From an uncultured virus (IMG/VR IMGVR_UViG_3300023109_001645) (Duplodnaviria > Heunggongvirae > Uroviricota > Caudoviricetes), in IMG/VR virus record IMGVR_UViG_3300023109_001645: 57,670 nt of DNA. One strand, 5' to 3'. Made by a program: the position numbers and the translations under genes. Below, one piece after another: positions 34,499-49,538 of the stretch. Under the pieces are notes generated by a model that was given only the letters and a program-made list of their open reading frames with translations, had not been told where the DNA came from and did not search any database. How positions within the stretch are numbered: position 1 is the first letter of the stretch; every line of letters begins with the position of its first letter.

Positions 34499-34499
34499 T

Positions 34500-35501
34500 A
34501 TGCACATTTTTATAACAGGTATAGCTGGCTTTTTAGGAAGTCATTTAGCTGATAGATTTATTGAACTAGGACACACAGTGTCTGGTAATGATACACTCAT
34601 AGGCGGCTACGAAGATAATGTAAATCCGGAAGCCGTTTTATACAAAGTTGATTGTTGTGACAGGGCACGTATGACTGAAATTCTAAAAGATACTGATATA
34701 GTTATACATGCAGCAGCTACAGCCCATGAAGGCCTTAGTGTGGTAAGTCCAGATTTTATTACAAAAAATATATTCCAGGCAAGTGTAAGTGTTATAAGTG
34801 CTGCTCTTGCCAATAAAGTAAAACGATTTGTGTATTGTACATCTATGGCAAGGTACGGAGATCAGCAAACACCGTTTACAGAAGATATGCAACCTAAGCC
34901 AGTTGATCCGTATGGTATTGCAAAAGTAGCAGGAGAAGATGTGCTTAAAGCACTTAGCGAAACACACGGTATGGAGTGGAATATTGCAGTTCCACATAAT
35001 ATAGTTGGGCCAAGGCAACGATATGATGATCCGTTTCGTAATGTAATGAGCATTATGATAAACAGAAATTTACAAGGCAAGCCTGCTATAATATACGGTA
35101 ATGGACTACAAACAAGATGTTTTTCTTATGTTACTGATTGTGTTGATTGCTTAGAGCGTATGAGTTTAGATCCTAGTATTGTAAATGAAGTTATAAACAT
35201 AGGTCCGGACGAAGGTACAATTACTATTACAGAGTTAGCAAGTTTAGTTGCAAATGAAACAGGACTAAATGCAGCACCAATACATATGGAAGACAGGCCT
35301 CGTGAAGTAAAACATGCTATGTGTAGTGCTGACAAAGCAAGATCTCTATTAAATTACAAAACAACGACAGATATACAAACATCAGTTATGAAAACAACTG
35401 AATACATTAGACGCAGAGGTGTAAAACCGTTTGATTACACATTTCCATTAGAAATTGTAAACGATAAGACACCTAAGACTTGGAAAGATAGACTAATTTA
35501 A
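34500..35501 (+). CDS. NAD-dependent nucleotide-sugar epimerase/dehydratase (extended SDR)
   Basis: TGIAGFLG, YGIAK and NIVGP motifs. Confidence 0.9.
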   Translation: MHIFITGIAGFLGSHLADRFIELGHTVSGNDTLIGGYEDNVNPEAVLYKVDCCDRARMTEILKDTDIVIHAAATAHEGLSVVSPDFITKNIFQASVSVISAALANKVKRFVYCTSMARYGDQQTPFTEDMQPKPVDPYGIAKVAGEDVLKALSETHGMEWNIAVPHNIVGPRQRYDDPFRNVMSIMINRNLQGKPAIIYGNGLQTRCFSYVTDCVDCLERMSLDPSIVNEVINIGPDEGTITITELASLVANETGLNAAPIHMEDRPREVKHAMCSADKARSLLNYKTTTDIQTSVMKTTEYIRRRGVKPFDYTFPLEIVNDKTPKTWKDRLI

Positions 35502-36809
35502 ATGCATTTTTTATTCGAAGAGATAAAACACGGCGAGTTTAAAAACTTTGTTAAATGCCGAGACATTAATAGTTCACGAATACGTAGATTTACTCCTAGT
35601 CCTATGGCAATTGAGTTTTATAGACACCGTGAAAATTTAATGCACAGACATCATACATTTTCTACCACCCGAAGCAAACATCAACAATATATTATTGCAA
35701 CTGGTGTTGCACATGCTCCTTGGGATTGGTGTGGTCCTGATAACATAGGATTAGGCTTTGATAAAAATACTCCTGATAAAAGTTCATTATTTGCACACAT
35801 AGGTAAAAAACATCGGAAATCATTAAAAAGAAAAAATGCATTTTTACTAATAGATCAGTCTCACGAAGGATATCAAACAGAATGGTTATGGGCGTGGTTT
35901 CATAATAATTGTGAGGAGTATGGTATTCCGCCTACACAAATAATATATGTGACTGGAAATTTAGATAGCCGAGATCAATATAAAGAATGGTCCAAAGACC
36001 GATTAACAGGGGACAAAATTCTAGTAGTTCCTTATCCGCATTTTGAAAGTTCGATATCTAATATTTTAATTGACGGTATAGAAAATTACCCAACATTTGA
36101 ACAACAAGTAGAATATAAAAAAAATAATATAGACAGTATAAAAACTTATAGTGCATTACAAAAACGACCAAGGGCACACCGAGCATGGTTTTTTAAATAT
36201 CTAGTAGATTCTAACCTATTAGATTGTGGTATAAACAGTATGAATGCCTTCGAAATTAACAACACGCATTATGAAGGCAAGCAAATGACACCACAAGAAT
36301 ACGATAATGTCATAGACAAACTTCCAATTTTGCCGCCCAACACCAACAAACAAGGCTTAAAGGGATTTGCCAGCCAAGATTGCGGATCATATTTAACAAT
36401 GTTTAATGAGCAAATAATGTTAGATACATGGTTAACAGTAGTAAGCGAAGCATCTTTCGGCGAAAGCGAGAATGAATGTTTTCTTAGCGAAAAAACGTTT
36501 AAGCCAATTGCATGCTGTCATCCTTTTATAATAGCAGGTAACAAAGGATCGTTATCTAGGTTAAGAGAATTGGGTTATAAAACCTTTAGTCCATATATTA
36601 ATGAAGAGTATGATAATTTAAATACGTGGGAAAGGATGCCGGCAATTACTAAAGAACTTAAAAGAATAAACAATATGTCTTCTAAAGATAAATTAGATTG
36701 GTTTTGTAATCTAAAACCAATATTAGAATACAATTACGAACTTTTAAAATCTAAATCTAGTAATTCTTCGTCTGAGTATTTAAAAATTATAGAAAATTAT
36801 GTCGAGTAA
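35502..36809 (+). CDS. Putative GT-B/GT10-like glycosyltransferase (paralog of 33305)
   Basis: VVSE...FLSEKTFKPI...PFII.G...LGYKTF.PYI.E.YD motif. Confidence 0.5.
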   Translation: MHFLFEEIKHGEFKNFVKCRDINSSRIRRFTPSPMAIEFYRHRENLMHRHHTFSTTRSKHQQYIIATGVAHAPWDWCGPDNIGLGFDKNTPDKSSLFAHIGKKHRKSLKRKNAFLLIDQSHEGYQTEWLWAWFHNNCEEYGIPPTQIIYVTGNLDSRDQYKEWSKDRLTGDKILVVPYPHFESSISNILIDGIENYPTFEQQVEYKKNNIDSIKTYSALQKRPRAHRAWFFKYLVDSNLLDCGINSMNAFEINNTHYEGKQMTPQEYDNVIDKLPILPPNTNKQGLKGFASQDCGSYLTMFNEQIMLDTWLTVVSEASFGESENECFLSEKTFKPIACCHPFIIAGNKGSLSRLRELGYKTFSPYINEEYDNLNTWERMPAITKELKRINNMSSKDKLDWFCNLKPILEYNYELLKSKSSNSSSEYLKIIENYVE

Positions 36810-36817
36810 GAAAAGTT

Positions 36818-37843
36818 ATGTATAAATTACAAGTTAATGAAATAAACAAAGATTTAAAAAAGACTAAAAAAGCTATTATTGCAATAGGCTGTTCTTTTGT
36901 ACAAGGACAAGGAGCAATCGATGACGAATTGTATCAGGATTATGAATGGAATTATAAAGAAGGAGTTCCGCTCACTATTAATACTTCACACAAACAACGC
37001 AAACGAATTTTAAAAAAATACTCTAATATTACTGATGACGGAAATGGTACATTAGATTTTACCATGATGGAATATAAAAATGCATTTGTTAATGTATTGT
37101 GTAAAAAATATTTTAACGGGTTGTATACTCCTATTAATTTAGGAATTAGAGGATGCGGCAATCGAGGATCTATCAAAGAATTGTATATGTATCCTGATAT
37201 CAACTGGGACAGTATAAAAGAAATTATAGTGTTGTATGTTCCTAGTGGTCTCGAAAGATTTGATTTTATTAATGATCAATCCCAAGACCATTATAACTGG
37301 AAATGCATGTGGCCCCATTATGAAAATTGTACTGGACCTAGGCATAATCTATGGCAAGGCTATAGCGATACACTATATAGTGATAAATTTGAAGTATTAG
37401 AACAGCTTGCACATGTACAAGAATTAATGACATGGTGTAAATACAAAAATGCAAAACTAATAGTAACTCCTGGTTTTGATAGGAGATATGACAAAGAATA
37501 TTTTCAAGAATGTTTGGCACACGAAGTAGAACGAACTCATGATGAAACGTTTGTAAAATCATCTAAACCTTTATTATGGAAATCACCTGCTGACAAAACA
37601 CATTTATTAGATTTATTTCCTTGGTCTTCGATGTTTAGGCCCAACGGTCATGCTACATTTATAGATTTAGTATTGTCAATGGAAGAAACATTGGAAGATA
37701 AACAGGATCATTATATGCAGTTTTTAGGGAAAGGTTCATCTGAAGGATGGATAACTTCCTGTTCGCATCCTAGTCAAAAGAGTCATGATTTATTTGCTAA
37801 TCACTTATATAAACATATAGTTGAGGATAAAGTAGATGGCTAA
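36818..37843 (+). CDS. SGNH/GDSL-like hydrolase or acyltransferase
   Basis: IGCSF (block I), NLGIRGCGN (block II) and C-terminal HP. Confidence 0.65.
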   Translation: MYKLQVNEINKDLKKTKKAIIAIGCSFVQGQGAIDDELYQDYEWNYKEGVPLTINTSHKQRKRILKKYSNITDDGNGTLDFTMMEYKNAFVNVLCKKYFNGLYTPINLGIRGCGNRGSIKELYMYPDINWDSIKEIIVLYVPSGLERFDFINDQSQDHYNWKCMWPHYENCTGPRHNLWQGYSDTLYSDKFEVLEQLAHVQELMTWCKYKNAKLIVTPGFDRRYDKEYFQECLAHEVERTHDETFVKSSKPLLWKSPADKTHLLDLFPWSSMFRPNGHATFIDLVLSMEETLEDKQDHYMQFLGKGSSEGWITSCSHPSQKSHDLFANHLYKHIVEDKVDG

Positions 37844-38717
37844 AAAGAAAACAAGAGCAATGCTAGCAAGATTTCGTTCAAAAACTTCTAATACTGTAAA
37901 ACATTTCGAGTCATCCAATGATCCTAGTCTTCCAGATTATTTAGATAATCCTAAGATTCCATTCGGTATACAATCTGTTAGGAACTTTAATGACCAAACT
38001 CAGGATAGATCTCCAGCTCCTTCGCCTTGGATGCAGGGCGATAATCAAGAAACATTTAAGAAAAATAAAAAAGTAATGGGCGAAAAATGGAAATATTATG
38101 ACAAAACAATTACATATACTTTTAATGAACATGGATTTCGATGTCCCGAATGGGATCAGATAGATTGGAAAAATTCTATTGTATTATTTGGGTGTTCGTG
38201 TACATATGGCATTGGTTTATCAGACGAAGAAACTATTTCGGCACATTTAGAAAAATTGTCTAACAGACCAGTAATTAATCTAGGAGTACCTGGAGGATCC
38301 AACAGTTTGATGATACAAAATGCTACTAACTTGCTACATTTTTTTAAAGCGCCTTATGCTGTGGCTAATATTTGGAGTACTTCAGATAGATTTGAATATT
38401 TTTTAAAAGATAGTATTCATCATGCAGGACCATGGGACGGCAAGAATCAATCAGTAGATAATGTTCAAAAATTATGGCAATATACTTACGAGTATCCTGA
38501 TCATGAACAAGGACTTAATTATTACGAAACAAAAATTGGAAAATATTTGTGGCAAGATAGAAGCAAATATTCTGCTATATCATTTTTTCCATCTACTGTA
38601 ACACGCACACAATTAGAAAAACAGTTTGTAATAGATAATCAAGCTAGAGATTTAATTCATCCTGGCGAAAACAACGCTATAGAAGTAGCAAACTATTTAC
38701 ATGAGAGATTCAAATGA
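37836..38717 (+). CDS. SGNH/GDSL-like hydrolase or acyltransferase
   Basis: FGCSCTYG, NLGVPGGSN and DLIHPG motifs. Confidence 0.7.
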   Translation: MAKKKTRAMLARFRSKTSNTVKHFESSNDPSLPDYLDNPKIPFGIQSVRNFNDQTQDRSPAPSPWMQGDNQETFKKNKKVMGEKWKYYDKTITYTFNEHGFRCPEWDQIDWKNSIVLFGCSCTYGIGLSDEETISAHLEKLSNRPVINLGVPGGSNSLMIQNATNLLHFFKAPYAVANIWSTSDRFEYFLKDSIHHAGPWDGKNQSVDNVQKLWQYTYEYPDHEQGLNYYETKIGKYLWQDRSKYSAISFFPSTVTRTQLEKQFVIDNQARDLIHPGENNAIEVANYLHERFK

Positions 38718-40231
38718 GTGATTATAATAAATCAGCAGATGTAGCAGAAATACAACTAAAACGTATTTCTCCAAGCATGTGTTATGCCAAGTGGGCACAA
38801 ATGTCCATGCATTTAACCAACGGCACTACGCACAGTTGCTATCATCCTCCTTTACATAAAATTGATGTAGAAGAAATAAAAGAAAATCCTAGTGCTTTGC
38901 ATAATACAAAACAAAAAAAGCAAGAGCGTAAAGAAATGCTGGCTGGAAAACGTCCTGAAGGATGCAACTATTGTTGGAAAATTGAAGATCAAGGCGGACG
39001 CAGTGATAGGATATATCGTAGTGGCGAACAATGGGCACAAAATTCTAAAATAGATATTATTGAAGCATTGGATACAGGAGATATTACTCCTCGATATGTA
39101 GAAGTAAACTTTAATCAGGCCTGTAATTTAAAATGTTCTTATTGTAGCCCACATCTCAGCACTGCTTGGGAAGAAGAAATTAATAAATTTGGTTCTTATA
39201 GTATTATAAATGAAAAGGGCGAAAATGCAGAACACAACAACACTGAATATCTAGCAAAAGATGGATTGATGCCATTAAAAGTTCCACAAGCTGCTAATCC
39301 TTATGTAACAGCATTTTGGAAATGGTGGCCAGAGTTATATAAAAAACTTGAAGTATTTAGAATTACTGGCGGCGAGCCATTAATGGATGTTAATACATTT
39401 AAAGTTTTAGATTACATCTACGAAAATCCAAATGCGTGGCTAGAAGTTAGTGTAACTAGTAATTTTTCTCCTCCTAAAACTGAGCTAATGGACAAGTTCA
39501 TTGCCAAGTTAAAAAAATTAGAAGAAATACAAATATGGAAAGACGAAGAACGTTTTAATCCAGGCTCTGGCAACAATTGGTATGTTAACATGGCATTAAA
39601 AAATGTTGCTGTGTTTGTTAGTGTCGATAGTGTAGAAGAACAAGCTGAATACATTAGAACAGGATTAGATTATAGTGCAATGCAAGGTAATGTAGACAAG
39701 TTTTTAGCAGAAACTAATAACACAACAATGACGTTTATTAATACATTCAACGCACTAAGTGTTCCTAAATTTAAAAACTTTTTAGAATATGTACTTTCTT
39801 TAAGAGCTGAATATAGCAGAGACAATCAAGGAACAAAATATATTCCTATATATGATCAGTATAATACACACGACGATTATGAAATACATCCAAGGCAGCG
39901 TATTTGGTTTGATATTCCATTATTAAGAAATCCAGCATGGCAAGCAATACAAATATTACCACAAGAGTTTGATCATTATTTAGAAGATGCAATTGATTTT
40001 ATGAAAGCAAATTCTAATACAGATAATTTTGTAGGATTTTATGATTTTGAAATTAAAAAAGCAGAAAGAAATTTAGCAGCGTTACAAGCAAGAAATTTAA
40101 GCAGCCCAGAAGCACTTGAAAGAAACCGCCGCAATTTGGTTAAGTATTTTGATCAGCATGATATTCGTAGAAACACCAACTTTTGTAAAACATTTCCAGA
40201 ATTTGTTGAGTTATACAATCAATATTCTTGA
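38714..40231 (+). CDS. Radical SAM protein with N-terminal twitch domain (paralog of 31143)
   Basis: CNLKCSYC, GGEPL and CYAKW...GTTHSCYH...CNYC motifs. Confidence 0.9.
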   Translation: MSDYNKSADVAEIQLKRISPSMCYAKWAQMSMHLTNGTTHSCYHPPLHKIDVEEIKENPSALHNTKQKKQERKEMLAGKRPEGCNYCWKIEDQGGRSDRIYRSGEQWAQNSKIDIIEALDTGDITPRYVEVNFNQACNLKCSYCSPHLSTAWEEEINKFGSYSIINEKGENAEHNNTEYLAKDGLMPLKVPQAANPYVTAFWKWWPELYKKLEVFRITGGEPLMDVNTFKVLDYIYENPNAWLEVSVTSNFSPPKTELMDKFIAKLKKLEEIQIWKDEERFNPGSGNNWYVNMALKNVAVFVSVDSVEEQAEYIRTGLDYSAMQGNVDKFLAETNNTTMTFINTFNALSVPKFKNFLEYVLSLRAEYSRDNQGTKYIPIYDQYNTHDDYEIHPRQRIWFDIPLLRNPAWQAIQILPQEFDHYLEDAIDFMKANSNTDNFVGFYDFEIKKAERNLAALQARNLSSPEALERNRRNLVKYFDQHDIRRNTNFCKTFPEFVELYNQYS

Positions 40232-40256
40232 CAAATCAAATAATTTATGCTAGAAT
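40228..40256 (+). promoter_or_regulatory. Sigma70-type promoter with extended -10, probably giving a leaderless mRNA
   Basis: TTGACA (40228-33), 17-nt spacer, TGcTAGAAT (-10 at 40251-56). The ATG at 40263 sits at the expected +1 and has no SD. Confidence 0.8.
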
Positions 40257-40262
40257 ATTACA

Positions 40263-40937
40263 ATGTACGATATAGTCTTTATTAGTTACCAAGAGCCTTC
40301 AGCAGATGAAAACTATGCTGCACTAAAGGCACGATTTCCTATGGCTAAACGTGTACACGGAGTTAAAGGAATACACCAGGCACATATAAAGGCAGCAAAG
40401 AAATGCTTTACTAAAATGTTCTGGATTGTAGATGCAGATGCACTTATACTAGATACATTTAATTTTGATTATGAAGTTCCAGATCATCAATTAGATCACG
40501 TACATGTATGGAGAGCAAAGAATCCTATTAATGGATTAGAATATGGCTATGGAGGAGTAAAGTTATTTCCCCGCAAACTTACAATAGATATGGATACAAG
40601 TAAGGCGGATATGACTACAAGCATAAGTGAACATTTTATTGCTATAGATGAAGTTGCAAATACTACAGCATTTAATACAAGTCCATTTGAAACATGGAAA
40701 GGTGCATTTAGAGAATGTGCCAAATTAAGTAGTAAGACAATCTTGAGGCAAAACAATGAAGAAACAGACGATAGACTTAATACGTGGTGTACAAAAGGCT
40801 CTAAGGAACGCTATGGCAGCTACGCTCTTAATGGTGCTAATGCTGGTAGGAAGTTTGGGATTTCTAATAGGAGCAATATTAGTCTTATAAATGATTTTGA
40901 TTGGCTAAAGGAACAGTTTAATGCAGCTAGTTTCTAG
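40263..40937 (+). CDS. GT-A-like glycosyltransferase (paralog of 30223)
   Basis: DIVFISYQEP...AHIKAA...FWIVDADA (DxD) and YGYGGVKL motifs. Confidence 0.65.
   Translation: MYDIVFISYQEPSADENYAALKARFPMAKRVHGVKGIHQAHIKAAKKCFTKMFWIVDADALILDTFNFDYEVPDHQLDHVHVWRAKNPINGLEYGYGGVKLFPRKLTIDMDTSKADMTTSISEHFIAIDEVANTTAFNTSPFETWKGAFRECAKLSSKTILRQNNEETDDRLNTWCTKGSKERYGSYALNGANAGRKFGISNRSNISLINDFDWLKEQFNAASF
40756..40890 (+). CDS. Candidate overprinted 44-aa membrane peptide (+1 frame inside the glycosyltransferase)
   Basis: MKKQTIDLIRGVQKALRNAMAATLLMVLMLVGSLGFLIGAILVL; GAGG precedes ATG 40756 and TAAGGA precedes ATG 40813. Confidence 0.45.
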   Translation: MKKQTIDLIRGVQKALRNAMAATLLMVLMLVGSLGFLIGAILVL

Positions 40938-41976
40938 TATTAAGACAGTTCATGTTGAACTTACAGATAAATGTCAAGCACAGTGTCCTATGTGTGCCAG
41001 AAACTACCACGGCGGCGCCACTCGACCTTTTATACGTAACGGCGATATTAGTATTGAACAATTTAAAGAATGGTTTCCTCGACAATTCCTAGCACAATTA
41101 AATAATTTCTATAGTTGTGGTAACTACGGAGATCCTGCATTTGCAAAAGATTGTTTAGAAATATATGCATATGTACGTGAATGTAATCCAACAACACGGT
41201 TAGCAATCCATACCAATGGAGGTATGAGAAATCCTGCATGGTGGAAAAAACTAGCACAACATAATATTGATGTTATATTCGCAGTTGATGGTTTCAAAGG
41301 AAAGCACGAACTATATCGTAAAAATACAAATTTTGATAAAGTAATAGAAAATTTAAAAGCATTTATTGATGCTGGAGGCAATGCGTCAGTTGATAGTTTA
41401 GTATTTTTACACAACGAACACCAAGTAGATGAACTTGAAACATACTTGTTAAACATTGGAGTACAAAAAGTAAACTTTGTTAGTACGACACGATTCTACG
41501 AAATGAAAGAATACGAAGTACATGACAATAACGGCAATGTAGAATATACTATTGCTCCTGCACAAACACAAAGATTTAAAAAAACACCGTCAAAGTCATT
41601 AACGGCATTACTAGATAAAACGTATAGAGATTCTGCAATAGCTCATAGTACAATTACGCCTAAATGTGAAATAGAAAATGGTATATATGTAGATCCGTAT
41701 GGTGATATTTTTCCTTGTTGTTGGTTAGGAGGAGACTACTTAGAGCAGCCAATACAAGAAGTACTGCCAATACACCAATTGCGTAATCTAAGTGTTGAAA
41801 ATACCAAACAAGTATTGTTAGATGTTGGTATTCCTAACTGCAAAGATGGTATACTATCTAACAATGCAACGTTATTTAAAAAGTTGTCTGATTATTGGGA
41901 TGGAGTGGACAAATGTATGACATGTTCCCGACAATGTAGTAAACTAATGTATGAGAGTAATAACAAATATGAATGA
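40921..41976 (+). CDS. Radical SAM protein with C-terminal SPASM/twitch domain
   Basis: CQAQCPMC and GNYGDP motifs; C-terminal C...GDIFPCC...CMTC. Confidence 0.9.
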   Translation: MQLVSSIKTVHVELTDKCQAQCPMCARNYHGGATRPFIRNGDISIEQFKEWFPRQFLAQLNNFYSCGNYGDPAFAKDCLEIYAYVRECNPTTRLAIHTNGGMRNPAWWKKLAQHNIDVIFAVDGFKGKHELYRKNTNFDKVIENLKAFIDAGGNASVDSLVFLHNEHQVDELETYLLNIGVQKVNFVSTTRFYEMKEYEVHDNNGNVEYTIAPAQTQRFKKTPSKSLTALLDKTYRDSAIAHSTITPKCEIENGIYVDPYGDIFPCCWLGGDYLEQPIQEVLPIHQLRNLSVENTKQVLLDVGIPNCKDGILSNNATLFKKLSDYWDGVDKCMTCSRQCSKLMYESNNKYE

Positions 41977-42952
41977 CTTTCAGCAAATTCCGTGGGATAA
42001 CATTACAAAATTTGGGCAGCAAACTCTATTAGATACCAATCTCTTTACAGTATCATGGATACTTGCTAGATTTTGCAACTATAATTGTAGTTATTGTTGG
42101 CCTTATGCTAGAAGTAGCACTCCTGACCATCAAAAATTAGAAGTCTATTTAAAAACATTAAACAATATTAAACAGCAAGCTCGAGACAACGGATTTACTG
42201 ATTTTCATTTTAGTTTTAGCGGAGGCGAACCAACTGCTTATAAATACTTTGGGGAGATTATAGATCATTACTGTAGGGATACAGCACCCGAGTACCAAAG
42301 CATCCACATGACGACCAATCTTAGCCCAGGCAGCAAATGGTGGAGTCGATGGTTAGAATCAACTAGTACTTTACAACGTAAAAGTATTACAGCAAGCTAT
42401 CATGCAGAGTTTGCAGATGAACAAGAGTTTGGAGATAAATGTCTCCAATTAATAGAAGGAGGAGTATATGTTACGATCAATCAAGTTATGGTTCCTGAAA
42501 TGTTTCAAGAGCTTTACGAACGCTTGGAACGATTTGCCGCCAGAGGTATTAACGTCACTCTCAAGCCCCAGTCCGATCCAACCGCCTCCCACGTGGTACA
42601 TGGATACACTGAAAGCCAGATCACAACAATGCGACAAGGATTTCCTCAGCACTGGAACGGAGAGCAAATCGCCCAAATCGCACTCTATGACGATAAAGGA
42701 ATAAAATACGAATTAGATCAAGCAGAACGCTTTAATGCGTTTGGATTTAACAAGTTCAAAGGATGGACTTGCAACGCAGGCTATCAGGGATGTGTTATCC
42801 GCGAAAATGAAGTTAGACGTAGCTATAGTTGCCATGACGAACCGTTAGGTACATTAGATGACGGTTTTAAATTGTTTAAAACACCAAAGAAATGCGTTAC
42901 ACCTAGTTGTGTAAGCAGTGCAGATAGTAAAATACCTAAGAGGAAATTATGA
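41969..42952 (+). CDS. Radical SAM protein with C-terminal Cys cluster
   Basis: CNYNCSYC and SGGEPT motifs; WTCNAG...C...CVTPSC. Start at 41969 preferred over 41951. Confidence 0.9.
   Translation: MNDFQQIPWDNITKFGQQTLLDTNLFTVSWILARFCNYNCSYCWPYARSSTPDHQKLEVYLKTLNNIKQQARDNGFTDFHFSFSGGEPTAYKYFGEIIDHYCRDTAPEYQSIHMTTNLSPGSKWWSRWLESTSTLQRKSITASYHAEFADEQEFGDKCLQLIEGGVYVTINQVMVPEMFQELYERLERFAARGINVTLKPQSDPTASHVVHGYTESQITTMRQGFPQHWNGEQIAQIALYDDKGIKYELDQAERFNAFGFNKFKGWTCNAGYQGCVIRENEVRRSYSCHDEPLGTLDDGFKLFKTPKKCVTPSCVSSADSKIPKRKL
42239..42246 (+). promoter_or_regulatory. Intragenic perfect T4 late-promoter consensus TATAAATA
   Basis: Exact TATAAATA immediately before a GC-richer, hairpin-rich segment and a nested ORF. 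It could arise by chance in AT-rich DNA. Confidence 0.45.
42468..42704 (+). CDS. Candidate overprinted 78-aa Pro/Ser-rich protein (+1 frame inside the radical SAM gene)
   Basis: AAGGAGG (42456-62) lies 5 nt before the ATG. Host-frame codon usage shifts to C-ending codons with no TTA across the overlap. Confidence 0.55.
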   Translation: MLRSIKLWFLKCFKSFTNAWNDLPPEVLTSLSSPSPIQPPPTWYMDTLKARSQQCDKDFLSTGTESKSPKSHSMTIKE

Positions 42953-43683
42953 AATTTGGAATACTAGGATATGGATATGTAGGAAAGGCTACGCACAGAG
43001 GCTTGCTTAATGATGCAAAAGTTATTGTGCATGATATTACATTTGACACCAAAAGAGAGATTTTAAAAGATGCCGATACAGTATTTGTTTGTATACCAAC
43101 AGCAACGCAAACAGATATCGATACGGTTATTACTGAAATACAACTAATACAAGAATTTAATCCATCTGCAACATTTATAATTCGTAGCACATTGCCATTG
43201 GGCTCATGTGAACGTATACAACAAGAAGTAGGCGATATAATTTATATACCAGAATTTTTACGGGAACGTTATTGGGATACAGATTGTCTTAAACGTCCGT
43301 TGATTGTCGGTAACGATAATAAAGAATTACCGAAATGGTTGTTAGACGAAGAAATTAAAACATGTTCTACAACAGAAGCAGAACTAATAAAAATGTACTC
43401 TAATAACTTTGCTGTAATGCGTATTGCATTTGCAAACGTATTTTATGATTTGTCAGAAAACGTTGGTGCCGATTATAATAAAGTATTAGATATGTATTTG
43501 GATGTACAACAAGATCAAACATACATGGAAGTTCCAGGACATGACGGCACTCGAGGCTTCGGAGGCAAATGTTTGCCTAAAGATTTAGATTTCCTTATTG
43601 AAACACTAGATCAACACAACATTGATCAAAATTGGTTCAAACATATTAGAGAGTTAAATAACGGATGGAAAGAAAAGTTTTAG
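42949..43683 (+). CDS. ugd: UDP-glucose/GDP-mannose dehydrogenase family protein (short form)
   Basis: GYGYVG, RST, PEFLRE, AELIK..SN and GFGGKCLPKD motifs; the C-terminal domain is absent. Confidence 0.85.
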   Translation: MKFGILGYGYVGKATHRGLLNDAKVIVHDITFDTKREILKDADTVFVCIPTATQTDIDTVITEIQLIQEFNPSATFIIRSTLPLGSCERIQQEVGDIIYIPEFLRERYWDTDCLKRPLIVGNDNKELPKWLLDEEIKTCSTTEAELIKMYSNNFAVMRIAFANVFYDLSENVGADYNKVLDMYLDVQQDQTYMEVPGHDGTRGFGGKCLPKDLDFLIETLDQHNIDQNWFKHIRELNNGWKEKF

Positions 43684-44534
43684 TAACTGGATCGCACGGA
43701 TTCATAGGTAGTCACTATTACGACTACTTAAAGCAACAGCAACAGAATGTAACGCCTTATGATATAAAATATGGAGGCGAAGACTTAGCAGATCCAAATA
43801 CTACCAAACATATGCCAAATTTTGATGTTGTTGTACATTTAGCTGCAACTAACGGTACACGATTGTTTTACGAAAATCCTACAGATGTATTAATTAACAA
43901 CACATTGCCTACTATCAATCTTATTCAGCGTTATAAAAACACCAATACAAAGTTTGTGTTTGCAAGCACTTGTGAAATATTTAATGGAGCAATAGATGAA
44001 GGTTACTACCCTATTCCAACTGATGAGCAAGTACCAGTTATGTTTAACGACATTACGAATCCACGTTGGAGTTATAGCATACCAAAAGCACTAGGCGAAA
44101 ACCTAGTTGCTAATAGCGGACTAGAATATCTTATTATACGGTACTTCAATGTGTATGGTCCAGGACAAGTAGATCACTTTATAAATGAGTTTGTAGAACG
44201 TTGTAAACAAGGTGAGTATTACATCAACGGCGACGATACTCGTAGCTTCTGCTATGTAGACGATGCTGTACGTATGACAGATATGCTTGTACGCAATCAC
44301 AGCAACTTAACTGTAAACGTTGGCACCCAAGAAGAAATCAAAATTAGTGTAGTAGCAAAACTAATAATGGGCATTATGAATATCAATCCTGACAAACTTG
44401 AAATACGTCCTAGTCCTGTTGGTAGTGCAAAACGCCGTTGTCCGAATACGACTCTTGTTAGATCCTTAACAGAGTTTACAGATTATACACCGTTAATAGT
44501 TGGATTAAGAAAAACTGTAGAGAGTCTGCTATGA
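43665..44534 (+). CDS. Extended SDR, UDP-glucuronate decarboxylase/epimerase-like
   Basis: TGSHGFIG, ASTCE, PRWSYSIPK, RYFNVYGP and TRSFCYVDD motifs. Confidence 0.8.
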   Translation: MERKVLVTGSHGFIGSHYYDYLKQQQQNVTPYDIKYGGEDLADPNTTKHMPNFDVVVHLAATNGTRLFYENPTDVLINNTLPTINLIQRYKNTNTKFVFASTCEIFNGAIDEGYYPIPTDEQVPVMFNDITNPRWSYSIPKALGENLVANSGLEYLIIRYFNVYGPGQVDHFINEFVERCKQGEYYINGDDTRSFCYVDDAVRMTDMLVRNHSNLTVNVGTQEEIKISVVAKLIMGIMNINPDKLEIRPSPVGSAKRRCPNTTLVRSLTEFTDYTPLIVGLRKTVESLL

Positions 44535-45136
44535 AAGTTAACATACAAGACGTATTATTTTGGATGGACGCTATCCGTAACAGTGATGATCGCTATCGCA
44601 CACTTGAAAGTTTTTGGAAAGGGCAAGTAAACAGTAAAGTATGGCTAACTGAACAGTTACCCGGTTTTGTACCTGTTAGACCGTTAAATATTGTTATATA
44701 TGGTGGTTGGAACGGTGTGCTGGCAAGTATACTCTTTAACTCTAACATAGCTGTACAGAGCATTACAAGCGTTGACATAGACCCTGTGTGCGAAGATATA
44801 GCAACAACAGTAAACAAGCGTTACGAAATACAAGGCAAATTTAGTGCTGTAACAGCAGATATGTGTGAATACACCACTGACGCTGATGTAGTTATAAACA
44901 CCAGCTGTGAGCATATTACACAACAACAGTATGACAAATGGCTTTCCAATCAACCAGATGCTGCTACATTTGTATTACAAAGCAATAACTATTTTGAATT
45001 AGACGAACATATTAGATGTAGTACAGACTTAGATGACTTTGTGCATATGAGCAATATTAATTCTTACCTACGCAAAACATTAGAAACACCTAAATATGAA
45101 CGTTATATGATTATCGGAAAAAAGAAAAATGTCTAA
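44531..45136 (+). CDS. Class I SAM-dependent methyltransferase
   Basis: IYGGWNG motif I, SVDID and INTSCEH. Confidence 0.75.
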   Translation: MKVNIQDVLFWMDAIRNSDDRYRTLESFWKGQVNSKVWLTEQLPGFVPVRPLNIVIYGGWNGVLASILFNSNIAVQSITSVDIDPVCEDIATTVNKRYEIQGKFSAVTADMCEYTTDADVVINTSCEHITQQQYDKWLSNQPDAATFVLQSNNYFELDEHIRCSTDLDDFVHMSNINSYLRKTLETPKYERYMIIGKKKNV

Positions 45137-46535
45137 ATATTGGTACGCAAAAGATGATACAAGACTCGGTAAGTTCCAAAGACAATTGGAGTCTAAATCG
45201 AGTTGTACATTTTGTGTATTACCTTGGATACATTTAGCAACCCGTCCTAACGGTGATATGCGCTTATGCTGTACTGCTAACGCCAGTGGAGCCGGCGACA
45301 ATCACACAGTCGGGTTAATTAAAAACAAAGACGGTAGTCATGCTAACTTTGGTAAAGTAACTCCTATGGAAGCATGGAACAGTGACTTTATGAAAAATGT
45401 TCGTAATACTATGCTTGCTGGAGAAATACCAGCAAGTTGTACAGGTTGTTTTGATGAAGAATCACAAGGTATCGTTAGTAAGCGCATATGGGAATCTGCT
45501 ACTTGGTTAAATGACGAAGGAGTTGATGTTGAAGAACTTATTTCCCAAACTCAAGAAGATGGCACAGTTCCTGAACAGTTACAATATTTAGATTTAAGAT
45601 TAGGACACACTTGTAATATTAAGTGTGTAATGTGTAGTCCGCATGATTCGAGCAAATGGGTAGCAGACTGGAAGAAACTTGTTCCGCAGTTAGAAGACGA
45701 ATCTGTAAAACAACAGCTAACCTGGGACAAAAAACAGTTTAACAACAAATGGCACGAACGCAAAGAATTTTGGGATGAGCTTTATGCACAAGTTCCAAAT
45801 TTAAAACAAGTATATTTTGCTGGCGGCGAGCCACTAATGATCAAAGAACACAAAACGTTCTTGGAAGAAATTGTTAGACAGGGTTACGAGCAGAATATAT
45901 TATTACGTTACAATTCAAATGGAATACTTGTTGACAAAGAACTAATTGAACTTTGGAGTAAATTTAAAAAAGTTAAGTTTGCTATTAGTATTGATTCCTA
46001 TCAAGAACGTGATGAATACATTCGATATCCAACTAAGTTTACCGAAGTTGAAAGCACACTAAGACTATTAGATGACACACCAGATAATATACACATTAGT
46101 ATAGCAACTGCTGTGCAGATTTTTAATATAAAAACTATTCCAAATTTTATTAAATGGAAAGTAAACAGTAATTTCAAAAAAGTAAATGTAGGACTTATTG
46201 ATGGAAACATAATGGGAGGCGGCTTGGTAAATGCGCACCTTGTACATATTCCAACATTTCTTAATATTACAATATTACCAGAAGCTGACAAGCAAGAAGT
46301 GCGTGAAAGATTTGCAGAACTTAAAGATTGGCTTTGGAATAACTTCACACAAGACGACGAATTTTGGATACACAATCCTAAAGGATGGCGACAATGGGAA
46401 GGCTTGTTAAAGCATATGGACAGTCGCGACAATAGTCATTTATTATCTGGTTTCAAAGAGTACGTAAACAAACTAGATGCTATTCGCGGATTAAACGCAG
46501 CAGCAGTATTTCCAGAATTGGCACATTTACTATGA
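45129..46535 (+). CDS. Radical SAM protein with N-terminal twitch domain
   Basis: CVLPW...NGDMRLCC...CTGC followed by CNIKCVMC and AGGEPL. Confidence 0.9.
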   Translation: MSKYWYAKDDTRLGKFQRQLESKSSCTFCVLPWIHLATRPNGDMRLCCTANASGAGDNHTVGLIKNKDGSHANFGKVTPMEAWNSDFMKNVRNTMLAGEIPASCTGCFDEESQGIVSKRIWESATWLNDEGVDVEELISQTQEDGTVPEQLQYLDLRLGHTCNIKCVMCSPHDSSKWVADWKKLVPQLEDESVKQQLTWDKKQFNNKWHERKEFWDELYAQVPNLKQVYFAGGEPLMIKEHKTFLEEIVRQGYEQNILLRYNSNGILVDKELIELWSKFKKVKFAISIDSYQERDEYIRYPTKFTEVESTLRLLDDTPDNIHISIATAVQIFNIKTIPNFIKWKVNSNFKKVNVGLIDGNIMGGGLVNAHLVHIPTFLNITILPEADKQEVRERFAELKDWLWNNFTQDDEFWIHNPKGWRQWEGLLKHMDSRDNSHLLSGFKEYVNKLDAIRGLNAAAVFPELAHLL

Positions 46536-47521
46536 CAGATCTTTTAAAAATTATTAATACACAAGAGCAAGACTATATTACAATAACATATTTTCCAACT
46601 GACATATGTAATTTTGATTGTTCTTATTGTTTTCCAGGAAGTCACCCTGGAAAATTTAGATACAGAGATGACGTTAATTTTGTAATAGATAACTTTCGAA
46701 CATTATTTAATTTTTATAAAAATAAATTTAATAAAACAAAAATCTATTTAGAAATAGCCGGAGGCGGAGAACCTACGTTTTGGCCGCATCTAGTAAAATT
46801 TTGCACCGAAATAAAAAAAGAACACGATGCTTATATACAATTAACGTGCAATGGTTCTCGCACAGTACGATGGTGGAAAACTATAATTCCTTATATAGAC
46901 GAAGTTTTACTAAGTTATCACAATGAGTATACAAATATAGAACATTATATAGAAGTTGCAGATCTTATTTGGGAAAATGATAAGAAAGTTAATGCTATGG
47001 TATTGATGGATGCTCTTAAATGGGATAAGTGTGTAGCTGATATAGAAACAATGAAAAAAAGTAAGTATAGTTGGTTTATAAATGCAAAAGAAGTAGTTAC
47101 TGCACCCGGACATGATGTTGAATCTTATTCTGAAGAACAGTTAAAATTTTTAGATCAACCAATAAAACGATTGCCTACTTCTGATTATATCCTAAAGAAT
47201 CTCAAAGATTACAGAATCGTAGAAAGTATAGCAATGTATCCAGATGATAAAATAGTGCCTGCAAATGCAAACTATTATCTTGTAAATAAATTAAATTACT
47301 TTACAGGCTGGAAGTGCAATGTTGTGTCAGAAAAAATTACAATATTTCCGTCAGGTAAAATTACGGGATCGTGTAATGTCAAGTTTAATGCAGATTTAAA
47401 TTTATATTCAGAAGAGTTATCTAACGATTTGAAAAGTATAGATATGCCTTATATTATTTGTGATAGAGATTGTTGTGCCTGTCAAAGCGACACACATATT
47501 ACGAAGTGGCAATCTTTGTAA
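46532..47521 (+). CDS. Radical SAM protein with C-terminal Cys cluster
   Basis: CNFDCSYC and GGEPT motifs; GWKC...GSC...CDRDCCAC. Confidence 0.9.
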   Translation: MTDLLKIINTQEQDYITITYFPTDICNFDCSYCFPGSHPGKFRYRDDVNFVIDNFRTLFNFYKNKFNKTKIYLEIAGGGEPTFWPHLVKFCTEIKKEHDAYIQLTCNGSRTVRWWKTIIPYIDEVLLSYHNEYTNIEHYIEVADLIWENDKKVNAMVLMDALKWDKCVADIETMKKSKYSWFINAKEVVTAPGHDVESYSEEQLKFLDQPIKRLPTSDYILKNLKDYRIVESIAMYPDDKIVPANANYYLVNKLNYFTGWKCNVVSEKITIFPSGKITGSCNVKFNADLNLYSEELSNDLKSIDMPYIICDRDCCACQSDTHITKWQSL

Positions 47522-47543
47522 GAGGAATATCAGCAGCACACTT
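47499..47543 (-). pseudogene. Orphaned 3' end of the radical SAM gene at 48630-49538
   Basis: The minus strand reads KCAADIPLTKIATS*, versus TCVADIPLTKVSVK* in the intact gene. Confidence 0.7.
47514..47540. repeat. 27-bp imperfect direct repeat, copy 1
   Basis: ctttgtaagaggaatatcagcagcaca; 24/27 identical to 48645-48671. Confidence 0.85.
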
Positions 47544-47544
47544 G

Positions 47545-48633
47545 TTATGAATGTCCTGCATCTGCTTTAAGAGAAAAATTAATTCTAATATTTTTAATTT
47601 CTCTTCTCAACACACTTACTAAATTTTCCTGTGCTAGCAATCTGTGCTTTAAGGAATATTTTGCAGCAGTGCCTTCATAGCAAAAAATATTTGATAGGTT
47701 AATAAGTGTTTTTAGATTAGGATCAATATAGTCTACAATAGATAACTCGTTGAGTAAGTCTGTGTATACAAATATATATTCAACACCGTCTTTGCGAGGA
47801 CAATTCTCTTGCCAGTAATCTAATGCACGTTGATTGTAGTCGTAAAATATCACACGGCCCTGGTCAACTAAGTCTAGGTATAACGTTCCACTTGCTGGTA
47901 TTACTAGTTGCTGGTATGTTTCATTGATACCAGTAGTCCATTCGGTATTATCGATATGTACATATTCTTCCTTGCAGTAATTAAACTTATGTTCTATATA
48001 TTCTGCATGTATATAATAGTCTTGTTCGCTTTCTGGATAGTAATGTTTTTTATTATTTCTAATAGACTCGTTGAATACAATAACTGGAAAATTATTTTCA
48101 AATGCCAGTCGTAAAACGTTCCATCCATGACACCGATTTGCATAACCCACCTTACGTGTTCCTGTTGTTACAGATTTGGGTGTGTAATCGTCATGCCAGT
48201 TTTCTAAACTACGGATAGGTTCTGTCTGAGTATGTGACACATGTTTTTCAAAAACACCTACTGTAGGGCACTGTAGACGCTTGTAATACTCCATATTAAC
48301 TACATAGCATTGATGATGTAGTTCGTAGTAAGCATCATACATTGTTCTATCTAACACATGCCCTGCTATAAAAAAGTCTTTGGTTACAAGTTCTTCTAGT
48401 GCTGTAAAGAACGCACTGCCGTTGATATATTCTGTACCCGGACTCATTACAACTGCATAATCATATTGACAAACTTCTTTCAATACATTGTCTGCGTTTT
48501 TATTTACAAATACATCATAACCTTTAGTTTGTAGATTTGATATTGTAAAGTCGCAAATGTTGTTGATAGTGGTTTGGATTTCTTCGTTAGCATAAGAATC
48601 GATATCATCTATAATACAAAATGCAATTTTCAC
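47545..48633 (-). CDS. Hypothetical protein, possible GT-A-like N-terminus and Rossmann-like C-terminus
   Basis: GTG start overlapping the upstream TGA (GTGA); motifs AGHVLDR..YYELHHQCYVVN and FYDYN..ALD...NLSNIF. The fold call is tentative. Confidence 0.55.
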   Translation of the reverse strand: MKIAFCIIDDIDSYANEEIQTTINNICDFTISNLQTKGYDVFVNKNADNVLKEVCQYDYAVVMSPGTEYINGSAFFTALEELVTKDFFIAGHVLDRTMYDAYYELHHQCYVVNMEYYKRLQCPTVGVFEKHVSHTQTEPIRSLENWHDDYTPKSVTTGTRKVGYANRCHGWNVLRLAFENNFPVIVFNESIRNNKKHYYPESEQDYYIHAEYIEHKFNYCKEEYVHIDNTEWTTGINETYQQLVIPASGTLYLDLVDQGRVIFYDYNQRALDYWQENCPRKDGVEYIFVYTDLLNELSIVDYIDPNLKTLINLSNIFCYEGTAAKYSLKHRLLAQENLVSVLRREIKNIRINFSLKADAGHS

Positions 48634-49538
48634 TTTACTGATACCTTTGTGAGAGGAATATCTGCAACACAAGTACAAAATTTACGTGTGCATATAATTT
48701 CTTGTTTAGGTGATTCAAATGTGCCGTTGTATATGTTGCCTAAACTACCGCCTACTCTACACGTAGCACGATGTACTTCACCGTCCCAGTTGATCATTAA
48801 ACTTTCAAGCCCAGCAGCACAACTCCAACCTTCAAATTGATTTAGTTTATGTTTAATAATATCATTAGCATGCATCATATCTTTTTCGTCTATAACACAA
48901 TTAGCTTTTACAGTAGAAGTTTTGCTTAGAATCCATTCTAAATCTTTTTCTTTATACTTCATATCATCAAACCAATCACGGTCATCTGCTTCCGTCCATC
49001 TTATACGTCTACACACATAAGGAATGTTATGACCTTCTAATAAATTTGCCGCAGCCCGAACATTGTCCATATACTTATGATGTGCCATTAGATTAACTTG
49101 GAATAATGTAGCCATTCCTTCCATCTCTAGAAGTTGTGCATACTTAACAACATTTTCAGCAGCACGTTGTGCATGCTCGTTATCAAAATGCAAACTGAAC
49201 ACCCATTGATTTACAGGCTGTCTAATATACCAATCACTAGAACGCAATCCGTTGGTTGTAACACTAATCCAGTCTAAACGTCTACGTGCGCAACTTAGTA
49301 TATCATTAATCTTAGGATGCACCGTGGGCTCGCCGCCTGTTAAACTTAGACGTATAGGTTTGTTAAATTTTTCTAATTCGTAAATAGTATTAATCATAAC
49401 GTCTAAGTCAGTGTGTGGACTAAAGTTATCGTGTATTTCTGCAGGGCAATATGCACAATCTAAATTACAGCGTTTACCAATATTCCACTCAACATGAATA
49501 CTAGTATGATGTCCCCAACGACTTTCTACTTTAAACAT
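48630..49538 (-). CDS. Radical SAM protein with C-terminal Cys cluster
   Basis: CNLDCAYC and TGGEPT motifs; GWSCAAG...RATC...CTRKFCTC. ATG at 49538 preferred. Confidence 0.9.
   Translation of the reverse strand: MFKVESRWGHHTSIHVEWNIGKRCNLDCAYCPAEIHDNFSPHTDLDVMINTIYELEKFNKPIRLSLTGGEPTVHPKINDILSCARRRLDWISVTTNGLRSSDWYIRQPVNQWVFSLHFDNEHAQRAAENVVKYAQLLEMEGMATLFQVNLMAHHKYMDNVRAAANLLEGHNIPYVCRRIRWTEADDRDWFDDMKYKEKDLEWILSKTSTVKANCVIDEKDMMHANDIIKHKLNQFEGWSCAAGLESLMINWDGEVHRATCRVGGSLGNIYNGTFESPKQEIICTRKFCTCVADIPLTKVSVK
48645..48671. repeat. 27-bp imperfect direct repeat, copy 2
   Basis: ctttgtgagaggaatatctgcaacaca; encodes CVADIPLTK on the minus strand. Confidence 0.85.

What the first reader, a model, noticed from the sequence alone, without database searches (positions are those of the whole stretch)
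42456..42704. Probable overprinted gene hidden inside a radical SAM gene
Seen: AAGGAGG sits 5 nt before ATG 42468, which opens a 78-codon +1-frame ORF (MLRSIKLWFLKCFKSFTNAWNDLPPEVLTSLSSPSPIQPPPTWYMD...). Over this interval the host frame abandons the genome's usual codons: Leu is CTT/TTG/CTC/CTC with no TTA, and Ile is ATC in 4 of 5 cases. The first ATA codon creates the nested stop. GC is 34/60 at 42541-42600, far above the flanks. Inference: dual-coding selection for a protein with an amphipathic N-terminus and a Ser/Pro-rich core. SPSP/PPP tracts would be plausible substrates for the cluster's prolyl-hydroxylase-like enzymes and glycosyltransferases, but that link is speculative.
Basis: partly seen in the sequence, partly recalled or inferred. 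Interest (0 to 1): 0.8.

Follow-up and report, generated by a model that had tools for sequence, protein, structure and literature searches.

The report
Persistent shadow ORF in phage gene
A 78-codon second reading frame inside a phage radical SAM gene is real and unusually persistent among relatives, but shows no protein-level selection, so it is more likely a by-product of a C-rich, recombining stretch than a hidden gene.

Summary

Chance alone gives about one +1 ORF of this size per window. Among 170 distinct full-length homologues, 100 keep the frame open and 70 do not. All 38 bacterial homologues read in register carry 2-9 stops.

For a gene:
- The frame is open in 81 of 93 close relatives. 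Two control +1 ORFs of the same window are open in 0 of 24 and 4 of 21.
- Stop-creating synonymous changes are scarce on open branches, P about 0.001-0.02. That test reads low in the controls too.

Against a gene:
- dNN/dNS is 1.02.
- Host synonymous change is not suppressed over the Ser/Pro core.
- The nested peptide flips Ser/Leu and Pro/Leu repeatedly.
- The GC3-rich core spans only 42530-42595.
- Blocks identical between phages span 42389-42613, not the ORF.
- The peptide has no homologue or family.

Verdict: probably a shadow ORF (0.6). A young, clade-restricted overprinted gene remains possible (about 0.2).

The parts
41951..42952 (+). Host gene: radical SAM enzyme, 333 aa, with the CNYNCSYC cluster motif near the N-terminus. 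It is mosaic among phage relatives.
   Evidence: ORF list. Pfam PF04055 46.8 bits, cut-off 29.5. phrog_13987. Mosaic identity profiles.
42450..42455 (+). TAA TAG in the +1 frame, closing that frame directly upstream of the nested ORF.
   Evidence: Sequence. The +1 frame is open only 4 codons upstream of the ATG.
42456..42462 (+). Shine-Dalgarno-like AAGGAGG, 5 nt before ATG 42468. It is made by host codons GAA GGA GGA (Glu-Gly-Gly).
   Evidence: A strong SD is present in 30 of 61 open haplotypes.
42468..42704 (+). The +1-frame ORF of 78 codons plus stop, the candidate nested gene. The ATG comes from host TAT GTT (Tyr-Val). The stop comes from host ATA AAA.
   Evidence: Open in 100 of 170 distinct homologues. 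No Pfam, PHROG or NCBIfam family and no homologue.
42530..42595 (+). C-rich synonymous-site core over host codons about 193-214, which encode the invariant motif RFAARGINVTLKPQSDPTAS. GC3 is 0.50-0.64 in open haplotypes and 0.23-0.35 in closed ones.
   Evidence: Invariant columns.
42389..42613 (.). Block identical base for base between the window and L004/L006/L048 (L003 from 42410), whose flanks are only 44-84% identical. This is a short recombination or gene-conversion tract.
42449..42676 (-). Antisense ORF of 75 aa over the same patch, in register with the host codons. Its length is not conserved among relatives (34-109 stop-free codons).

Best explanation
The +1 ORF is most likely a shadow ORF: an open alternative frame that is not under selection as a protein.

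The proposed mechanism has four parts.
(a) The ORF overlies the most conserved part of the host enzyme (VTINQVMVPE...RFAARGINVTLKPQSDPTAS). Two of the three bases of each +1 codon are therefore frozen by selection on the host protein. Only host third positions at Val/Ile/Leu codons followed by an A- or G-starting codon can create +1 stops. There are about 7-11 such sites.
(b) In one phage sub-clade these third positions are T or C, and a 22-codon core is strongly C-ending. This removes TAA, TAG and TGA from the +1 frame. In the window it does the same for the antisense frame.
(c) The SD-like AAGGAGG and the ATG are the ordinary codons of host Glu/Lys-Gly-Gly-Val-Tyr-Val.
(d) The stretch is passed between related phages by short-tract recombination. 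This keeps one open allele class common.

Shown here: the anatomy, the composition, the mosaicism and the lack of protein-level constraint.
Inferred: that nothing selects on the product.
Not explained: why the core is C-rich.
For: Chance and signals
- About one +1 ORF of 78 aa or more is expected per window. Three are observed against 0.88 expected.
- AAGGAGG is not enriched: 3 against 3.43 expected.

No protein-level selection
- dNN/dNS is 1.02, bootstrap CI 0.76-1.37, from 36 distinct sequences.
- Host synonymous-difference fraction is 0.38-0.45 over 42536-42600, against 0.39 gene-wide.
- Stop-risk codons change synonymously often in the 60-row clade: codon 175 has 16 events, 178 has 10 and 201 has 15, against a gene mean of 9.6. 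Each such change swaps Ser and Leu in the nested peptide.
- The strongest synonymous dip of the gene lies elsewhere, at host codons 96-109. The +1 frame is closed there.
- Against L032 the nested peptide is 32 of 69 identical. The host segment is 50 of 69 identical.

Stops in relatives
- 70 of 170 distinct homologues carry +1 stops.
- These include L150, L164, L182 and L180/L187, nested in the open clade. Their core GC3 is 6-18%.
- 38 of 38 bacterial homologues read in register have 2-9 stops.
- Openness tracks core GC3: Spearman -0.60, and Mann-Whitney P = 2.5e-5 within protein identity 0.72 or more.

Boundaries and recombination
- The GC3-rich core covers only 42530-42595.
- Identical shared blocks run 42389/42410-42613.
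- Parsimony needs 5 closed-to-open changes. That fits import of the allele by recombination.

No match for the peptide
- No homologue among 5.8 billion clusters in the near-length range.
- No Pfam, PHROG or NCBIfam family.
- The Atlas recognition score is 2155, below the 2300 reached by 91% of known families.
Against: Persistence
- The frame persists better than comparable chance ORFs. It is open in 22 of 24 haplotypes at protein identity 0.72 or more in the first viral set, and in 81 of 93 with all loci.
- Two other 80-aa +1 ORFs of this window are open in 0 of 24 and 4 of 21. This is despite higher nucleotide identity in the controls, 0.80 and 0.83 against 0.71.

Scarcity of stop-creating changes
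- On branches whose parent is reconstructed as open, stop-creating changes at the 7 risk sites number 8. The 15 interleaved control sites predict about 29 (bootstrap P = 0.008, Mann-Whitney 0.024).
- Against risk sites outside the ORF, Mann-Whitney P is 0.007.
- On closed branches the risk/control ratio is 0.94.

Variable 3' part
- Of 6 diverged host versions in the 5'-open class, 5 stay open against 2.5 expected.
- In the 5'-closed class, 3 of 14 versions are open against 3.5 expected.

Start codons
- Nearly all open haplotypes keep a start codon at or within 4 codons of the aligned site.

Other frames and the cause of the patch
- The antisense frame is not similarly conserved, so composition alone is not the whole story.
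- The cause of the C-rich core is unknown. No higher-GC donor was found.

Caveats on these signals
- The clade was chosen after seeing the data.
- Recombination violates the tree.
- The site-permutation test also gives P = 0.018-0.11 for the control ORFs.
- Over the whole family, cell counts normalised by control sites show little or no specific depletion.
Confidence: 0.6

Rival explanations
1. A young overprinted gene restricted to one phage sub-clade. Ribosomes start at the internal SD and ATG (or TTG) and make a 69-82-aa protein. It would have a basic amphipathic N-terminal helix and a Ser/Pro-rich middle. Selection keeps the frame open but constrains the sequence only weakly, as is typical of de novo, partly disordered overprinted proteins.
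For: - A perfect SD lies 5 nt before the ATG.
- The frame is open in 81 of 93 close haplotypes, against 0 of 24 and 4 of 21 for two control ORFs.
- Stop-creating changes are 3.5-fold scarce on open branches: 8 against about 29 expected, P = 0.008.
- Purine-ending Val/Ile/Leu codons are used where they are safe. Val 42596 is GTA before C, and Ile 42620 is ATA only before C. They are not used where they would make a stop. Val 42593 before G uses GTG or GTT, which are safe, and not GTA.
- The variable 3' part is open in 5 of 6 versions against 2.5 expected.
- A start codon is kept in nearly all open haplotypes.
- Host synonymous divergence dSN is 0.86 in the region, against 1.53 upstream and 1.27 downstream.
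- The AlphaFold2 single-sequence model has mean pLDDT 68.8 and three helices.
Against: - dNN/dNS is 1.02.
- Ser/Leu, Thr/Met and Pro/Leu flips recur at many nested positions.
- The Ser/Pro core is not conserved.
- The frame is lost in at least 4 places inside the clade and closed in most of the rest of the family.
- 13 of 61 open haplotypes have no SD before their first ATG.
- The peptide has no homologue or family.
- The retention statistics rest on a clade picked afterwards and on trees blurred by recombination.
- The permutation test is low in the controls too.
Confidence: 0.22
2. The nucleotide stretch itself is what is maintained, and the open frame is a side effect. It could be a preferred crossover site between the N- and C-terminal modules of the gene, with GC-biased repair of heteroduplex raising GC3. 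It could also be an unknown cis-acting DNA or RNA signal.
For: - Blocks of 204-225 identical bases are shared with phages whose flanks are 44-84% identical.
- L002 is identical to the window up to about 42613 and diverged downstream.
- Parsimony finds 5 apparent closed-to-open gains on the flank tree.
- The core is the most C3-rich stretch of the window.
- Both C-ending and G-ending two-fold codons are raised there.
- A run of almost invariant synonymous sites, CGA TTT GCC GCC, lies at 42530-42541.
Against: - The shared blocks include an AT-rich part at 42389-42467, with GC3 0.19-0.29. Biased repair would be expected to raise that too.
- Stop-risk sites outside the core are also kept safe.
- There is no Rfam match.
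- The fold z-score is -0.75.
- RNAalifold on 26 diverse open haplotypes gives -5.84 kcal/mol with 0 compensatory pairs.
- GC-biased conversion in phages is my conjecture, not a tested fact.
Confidence: 0.13
3. The frame is read by programmed +1 frameshifting from the host frame. This would give a radical SAM core with an alternative C-terminus, with the SD-like element acting as stimulator.
For: Only this: an SD-like element lies inside the gene just after the last +1 stop codons.
Against: There is no slippery site or in-frame stop or rare codon at 42463-42475. The ATG or TTG at the frame's start and the stops 4 codons upstream fit initiation better. No frameshift signal was tested further.
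Confidence: 0.02

Closest known systems
Shadow (alternative-frame) ORFs caused by local composition. The concept is recalled from the literature on long non-coding ORFs in GC-rich DNA. Schlub et al. 2018 (PMC6188560) was seen only as a search listing and abstract start.
   Same: The ORF sits in the most GC3-rich stretch of the window. An antisense ORF covers the same patch. Openness tracks local GC3. There is no protein-level constraint.
   Different: It persists in 81 of 93 close relatives, while two control shadow ORFs decay to 0 of 24 and 4 of 21. The GC3-rich core explains only 3-4 of the roughly 11 stop-risk sites.
Overprinted genes of viruses and phages, such as Rz1 embedded in the +1 frame of Rz in phage lambda, or gene E within D in phiX174. 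These examples are recalled, not looked up. The reviews PMC8227390 and PMC3494269 were seen only as search listings.
   Same: A small ORF lies wholly inside another gene in the +1 frame, has its own SD and start, is Pro-rich and is restricted to a sub-clade.
   Different: The host gene is a radical SAM enzyme in a sugar/radical-SAM cluster, not a lysis gene. No lipoprotein signal is evident: FLKC at residues 9-12 has Lys before Cys, and the lipobox consensus is recalled. There is no purifying selection on the nested frame.
Mosaic phage genes with recombination at conserved segments (a general property of phage genomes, recalled).
   Same: Identical 204-225-nt blocks are shared between phages with diverged flanks. 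Different relatives match the window on different sides of the patch.
   Different: Here the exchanged segment coincides with an extreme C3 peak and an unusually persistent alternative frame.

Membership tests
Overprinted (overlapping) protein-coding gene | Alternative frame open in homologues beyond chance | tested here: inconclusive
   100 of 170 homologues are open. 81 of 93 close ones are open, against 0 of 24 and 4 of 21 for control ORFs. Stop-creating changes on open branches number 8 against about 29 expected, P = 0.008. All 38 bacterial homologues and 70 phage ones carry stops. The clade was chosen afterwards, and the permutation test is low in the controls.
Overprinted (overlapping) protein-coding gene | Conserved start codon and ribosome-binding site | tested here: inconclusive
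   Of 61 open haplotypes, 39 have ATG, 17 TTG and 5 another codon at the aligned site. Thirty have a strong SD. Thirteen have their first ATG 2-4 codons upstream without an SD. Both signals are by-products of host Gly-Gly and Tyr/Phe-Val codons.
Overprinted (overlapping) protein-coding gene | Reduced synonymous variation of the host gene over the overlap | tested here: not met
   The synonymous-difference fraction is 0.25-0.35 at 42446-42535 but 0.38-0.45 at 42536-42600, against 0.39 overall. The dip starts upstream of the ATG. The deepest dip of the gene is at codons 96-109. dSN of 0.86 against 1.27-1.53 is only a mild reduction.
Overprinted (overlapping) protein-coding gene | Purifying selection on the alternative-frame protein (dNN/dNS below 1) | tested here: not met
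   dNN/dNS is 1.02, CI 0.76-1.37. My own OLGenie-like script has low power for 78 codons.
Overprinted (overlapping) protein-coding gene | Evidence of translation | not testable with these tools
   No ribosome profiling or proteome data were available for this uncultured phage lineage.
Embedded o-spanin (Rz1-type) | Embedded in an i-spanin gene of a lysis cassette, with a lipoprotein signal and lipobox Cys | tested here: not met
   The host is a radical SAM enzyme among sugar-modifying and radical SAM genes. The N-terminus MLRSIKLWFLKCF has Lys directly before the only early Cys. The lipobox consensus is recalled, and no predictor was run.
RiPP precursor peptide of a radical SAM/SPASM maturase | Small peptide with a conserved core next to its maturase | tested here: not met
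   The Ser/Pro core is not conserved among relatives. There is no peptide family hit. Modification itself is not testable here.
Structured RNA element | Stable fold with covariation, or an Rfam match | tested here: not met
   No Rfam match at E up to 1. Fold z-score -0.75. 0 of 16 predicted pairs are compensatory in 26 sequences.
Radical SAM superfamily (host gene) | CxxxCxxC cluster motif and a Pfam PF04055 match above the cut-off | tested here: met
   CNYNCSYC lies at residues 42-49. PF04055 scores 46.8 bits against a cut-off of 29.5.

The most novel reading that the evidence does not exclude
A de novo gene was born by overprinting on the stem of one clade of uncultured phages, inside the most conserved motif of a radical SAM enzyme. 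It is translated from a near-perfect internal ribosome-binding site into a roughly 70-80-aa protein with an amphipathic head and a Ser/Pro-rich middle. Selection keeps the frame open while the sequence drifts. The open allele spreads between phages by short-tract recombination.
Probability: 0.2. Interest if true: 0.65.

Novelty: already known. Interest (0 to 1): 0.38.

Why it matters
If the frame is only a shadow ORF, the case is a useful caution. A perfect SD, an ATG, a long ORF and deviant codon usage can all arise from ordinary host codons plus a local composition anomaly. Even the frame's conservation is inflated when the overlapped protein segment is nearly invariant.

If the minority reading is right, this would be a datable, clade-restricted birth of a gene by overprinting in large dsDNA phages. 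Hundreds of natural variants are already sequenced, so the early evolution of a de novo protein could be tested directly.

Either way, the extreme C-rich synonymous patch remains unexplained. It is exchanged as a 200-250-nt cassette between diverged phages and may say something about recombination and base composition in phage genes.

Tried and rejected
Higher-GC donor. No homologue is GC3-rich overall: locus GC is 0.32-0.39. The best bacterial patch identity is 0.68, against 0.57 for the rest of the gene. No other copy of the patch lies in the window.

Accuracy-driven codon bias at conserved residues. Rejected. The equally conserved Cys-motif region has GC3 of about 25%.

RNA structure. Rejected.

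Named phage relatives.
- No DNA match in GenBank phages.
- By protein, the only hit was a Campylobacter phage CP21 radical SAM at 23% identity.

Bacterial relatives.
- The first scan of bacterial genomes with the single protein found nothing.
- The repeat with alignment A1 found 79 loci, mostly Bdellovibrionales MAGs at about 50% identity.
- Of these I analysed 39 (L068-L109 without L105, L106 and L108).
- L104 came out of register in my extraction and is disregarded.
- L110-L146 match only the N-terminal domain and were not analysed.

Own assembly. It is not held, and I did not pursue the nearest record.

Earlier notes of this scan: none.

Peptide look-ups.
- The Atlas look-alikes were weak: score 0.90-0.91, with 121-133 of 256 shared features.
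- The single-sequence AlphaFold2 model (pLDDT 68.8) does not discriminate, and I ran no fold search.

Tests that turned out circular or biased.
- The first cell-count Fisher tests on risk against control sites are circular when restricted to open sequences. I give them no weight.
- The site-permutation test is biased low, as the control ORFs show.

Rows dropped.
- L201 and L210, for internal stops in my extraction.
- Partial sequences under 850 nt or lacking the region.

Literature. Two searches gave method papers and reviews by listing only. None of the 5 papers holding 'radical SAM', 'overlapping gene' and 'phage' looks relevant by title, and I read none of them.
Full report
**What is there**

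The window reads as phage DNA. It holds a tail-collar protein, a 5145-aa ORF, two 2OG-Fe(II) oxygenases, nucleotide-sugar epimerases and dehydrogenases, and nine ORFs with radical SAM matches (eight above Pfam's cut-off). The finding lies in a 333-aa radical SAM gene at 41951-42952 (Pfam PF04055 46.8 bits, phrog_13987).

- AAGGAGG lies at 42456-42462, 5 nt before ATG 42468.
- A 78-codon ORF follows in the +1 frame and ends at 42704.
- TAA TAG lies directly upstream at 42450-42455.
- Host Leu codons in the interval are CTT, TTG, CTC, CTC, and Ile is ATC four times and ATT once. Window-wide, CTC is 2%, ATC 9%, GTC 4% and TTA 48% of their families.
- GC is 34/60 at 42541-42600.

The composition anomaly is real. 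The 30 codons from 42533 have GC3 0.60 and C3 0.47, against 0.219 and 0.124 window-wide. That is the most extreme of 17,893 such stretches.

**Chance in one genome**

The ORF itself is not an outlier.
- The window has 22 alternative-frame ORFs of 78 aa or more in 43 large ORFs.
- Three are in frame +1, against 0.88 expected from within-gene synonymous shuffling. Six per cent of 200 shuffles give 3 or more.
- AAGGAGG occurs 3 times against 3.43 expected.
- The SD and ATG are the ordinary codons of host Glu-Gly-Gly-Val-Tyr-Val.
- An antisense 75-aa ORF covers the same patch.
- Given the host protein and the window's codon usage, the +1 frame would be open over this interval with probability 2e-4. 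That value is typical of intervals of this length in this gene: it ranks 120 of 253.

**Relatives**

Protein-guided scans gave 67 and 80 viral loci and 80 metagenomic loci at 62-98% protein identity. They also gave bacterial homologues at about 50% identity, mostly Bdellovibrionales MAGs.

- Of 170 distinct full-length phage-type sequences, 100 keep the +1 frame open for at least 66 codons from the aligned start. Seventy do not.
- All 38 bacterial homologues read in register have 2-9 stops and no SD or ATG.
- I built a tree from the gene without the nested columns. On it the open sequences form most of a 60-row clade, with 55 open and 5 closed. Other clades are mostly closed.
- The 5 closed rows in the clade (L150, L164, L182, L180/L187) have core GC3 of 6-18%.
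- Openness tracks core GC3: Spearman -0.60, and P = 2.5e-5 within protein identity 0.72 or more.

**No protein-level selection**

- An OLGenie-like count gives dNN/dNS = 1.02, CI 0.76-1.37, for the nested frame.
- The host synonymous-difference fraction is 0.38-0.45 over the Ser/Pro core, against 0.39 for the gene. A mild dip to 0.25-0.35 at 42446-42535 begins upstream of the ATG.
- The deepest synonymous dip of the gene is at host codons 96-109, where the +1 frame is closed.
- Host third positions are nested second positions, so every synonymous host change alters the nested protein. Such changes are frequent. Codon 175 has 16 events, 178 has 10 and 201 has 15, and each swaps Ser and Leu.
- The tract SPSPIQPPP in the window reads SNHNPTPLPP and SNPNLILPPV in relatives.
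- Against L032 the nested peptide is 32 of 69 identical and the host segment 50 of 69.
- The peptide has no homologue in the near-length range and no Pfam, PHROG or NCBIfam family. Its Atlas recognition score is low.

**The patch and recombination**

- In the 100 open sequences, the GC3-rich core spans only host codons about 193-214 (42530-42595), with GC3 0.50-0.64. This encodes the invariant motif RFAARGINVTLKPQSDPTAS.
- The rest of the nested ORF has ordinary GC3 of 0.28-0.42.
- The gene is mosaic. L003, L004, L006 and L048 are identical to the window over 42389/42410-42613, while their flanks are 44-84% identical. L002 is identical up to the patch and diverged after it.
- Neither the core nor the shared blocks match the ORF ends.
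- Parsimony needs 5 closed-to-open changes on the flank tree. These are best read as import of the open allele by recombination.
- No higher-GC donor was found among phage or bacterial homologues, and there is no second copy in the window.
- RNA structure is not supported.

**What speaks for a gene**

The frame is more persistent than I expected.

- Controls. I ran two other 80-aa +1 ORFs of this window (at 10114 and 13387, in the 5145-aa gene) through the same pipeline. They are open in 0 of 26 and 4 of 29 homologue haplotypes, or 0 of 24 and 4 of 21 at protein identity 0.72 or more. The target is open in 23 of 36 (22 of 24) in the first viral set and 87 of 145 (81 of 93) with all loci. This holds although nucleotide identity is lower in the target region.
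- Branch counts. On branches whose parent is reconstructed as open, stop-creating changes at 7 risk sites number 8. These sites are Val, Ile or Leu codons ending in T or C before an A-starting codon. The 15 interleaved control sites average 4.2 events per site. Bootstrap P is 0.008 and Mann-Whitney 0.024, and against risk sites outside the ORF it is 0.007.
- On closed branches the risk/control ratio is 0.94, and outside the ORF it is 0.94-1.03.
- Codon choice. Purine-ending codons are used where they are harmless and avoided where they would make a stop.
- Variable 3' part. Five of 6 diverged host versions in the 5'-open class stay open against 2.5 expected. In the 5'-closed class, 3 of 14 are open against 3.5 expected.
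- Start codons. A start codon is kept at or near the aligned site in nearly all open haplotypes.

**Why I discount this**

- The clade and the 66-codon criterion were chosen after looking at the data.
- The trees are quick, midpoint-rooted and blurred by recombination.
- Events at control sites are dominated by five sites with old polymorphisms. At the level of sites the test is only P of about 0.05-0.1.
- The permutation test gives 0.018-0.11 for the control ORFs too.
- At the window-defined risk sites alone, 67-70% of target haplotypes have no stop, against 54% and 28% for the controls. Much of the contrast therefore comes from the near-invariant host protein, which closes most other routes to a stop.
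- Over the whole family, cell counts normalised by control sites show little or no specific depletion.

**Verdict**

| Reading | Probability |
|---|---|
| Shadow ORF | 0.6 |
| Young, clade-restricted overprinted gene kept open but weakly constrained | about 0.2 |
| The nucleotide patch itself is maintained (crossover site with GC-biased repair, or unknown signal) | about 0.13 |
| Programmed frameshifting | about 0.02 |

The shadow ORF would be made possible by three things: an invariant host motif, a C-rich synonymous core of unknown cause, and short-tract recombination that spreads one open allele.

Supplements of the listed papers were not consulted. The papers were seen only as search listings.

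Noticed in passing
window 3222-18659 (+): A single ORF of 5145 aa next to tail-collar and Peptidase_G2-like genes. Segments of it have 46 and 56 viral-contig homologues at 58-88% identity (plus three distant ones at 31-39%). It contains two non-conserved 80-aa +1 ORFs, which I used as controls.
   Followed up: partly
window 31143-50796: A dense cluster of nine ORFs with radical SAM matches, two with SPASM domains. They lie at 31143, 38714, 40921, 41951, 45129, 46532, 48630(-) and 49531(-), with a weak one at 38714. They are interleaved with nucleotide-sugar epimerases and dehydrogenases and a 2OG-Fe(II) oxygenase. The substrate is unknown.
   Followed up: partly
L069-L109 (genome contigs): Full-length homologues of the host radical SAM gene at about 50% identity sit on large contigs and chromosomes of Bdellovibrionales MAGs, up to 3 Mb. 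The family is therefore shared between these bacteria and the phages.
   Followed up: partly
window 42389-42642; L002-L006, L017, L024-L028, L048: Strong mosaicism of the host gene. Different relatives are identical to the window on different sides of the patch. N- and C-terminal parts appear to be reshuffled at the conserved core.
   Followed up: partly
L007, L013-L015, L024-L043 and others, after host codon 237: A 13-codon insertion variant (RIPDEFKKII-type) replaces HWNGE in many relatives. It ends the +1 frame at 69 codons instead of 78.
   Followed up: partly
L060-L063: In these AT-rich outgroup sequences (region GC 0.31) the +1 frame is also stop-free for 77 codons across the patch. It has two stops just after the aligned start and no ATG there.
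   Followed up: no
window-wide codon context: G-ending Val and Leu codons are much rarer before A- or G-starting codons. GTG is 0.01-0.03 there against 0.16-0.19 elsewhere, and TTG is 0.06-0.10 against 0.25-0.28. ATA is rarer before A or G as well. This codon-pair bias affects any off-frame-stop statistic.
   Followed up: partly
window 42236-42280 (host codons 96-109): This is the lowest synonymous change of the whole gene in the 60-row clade: 36 events per 10 conserved degenerate codons, against a mean of about 96. A second GC3-rich stretch lies nearby at 42245. Unexplained.
   Followed up: no
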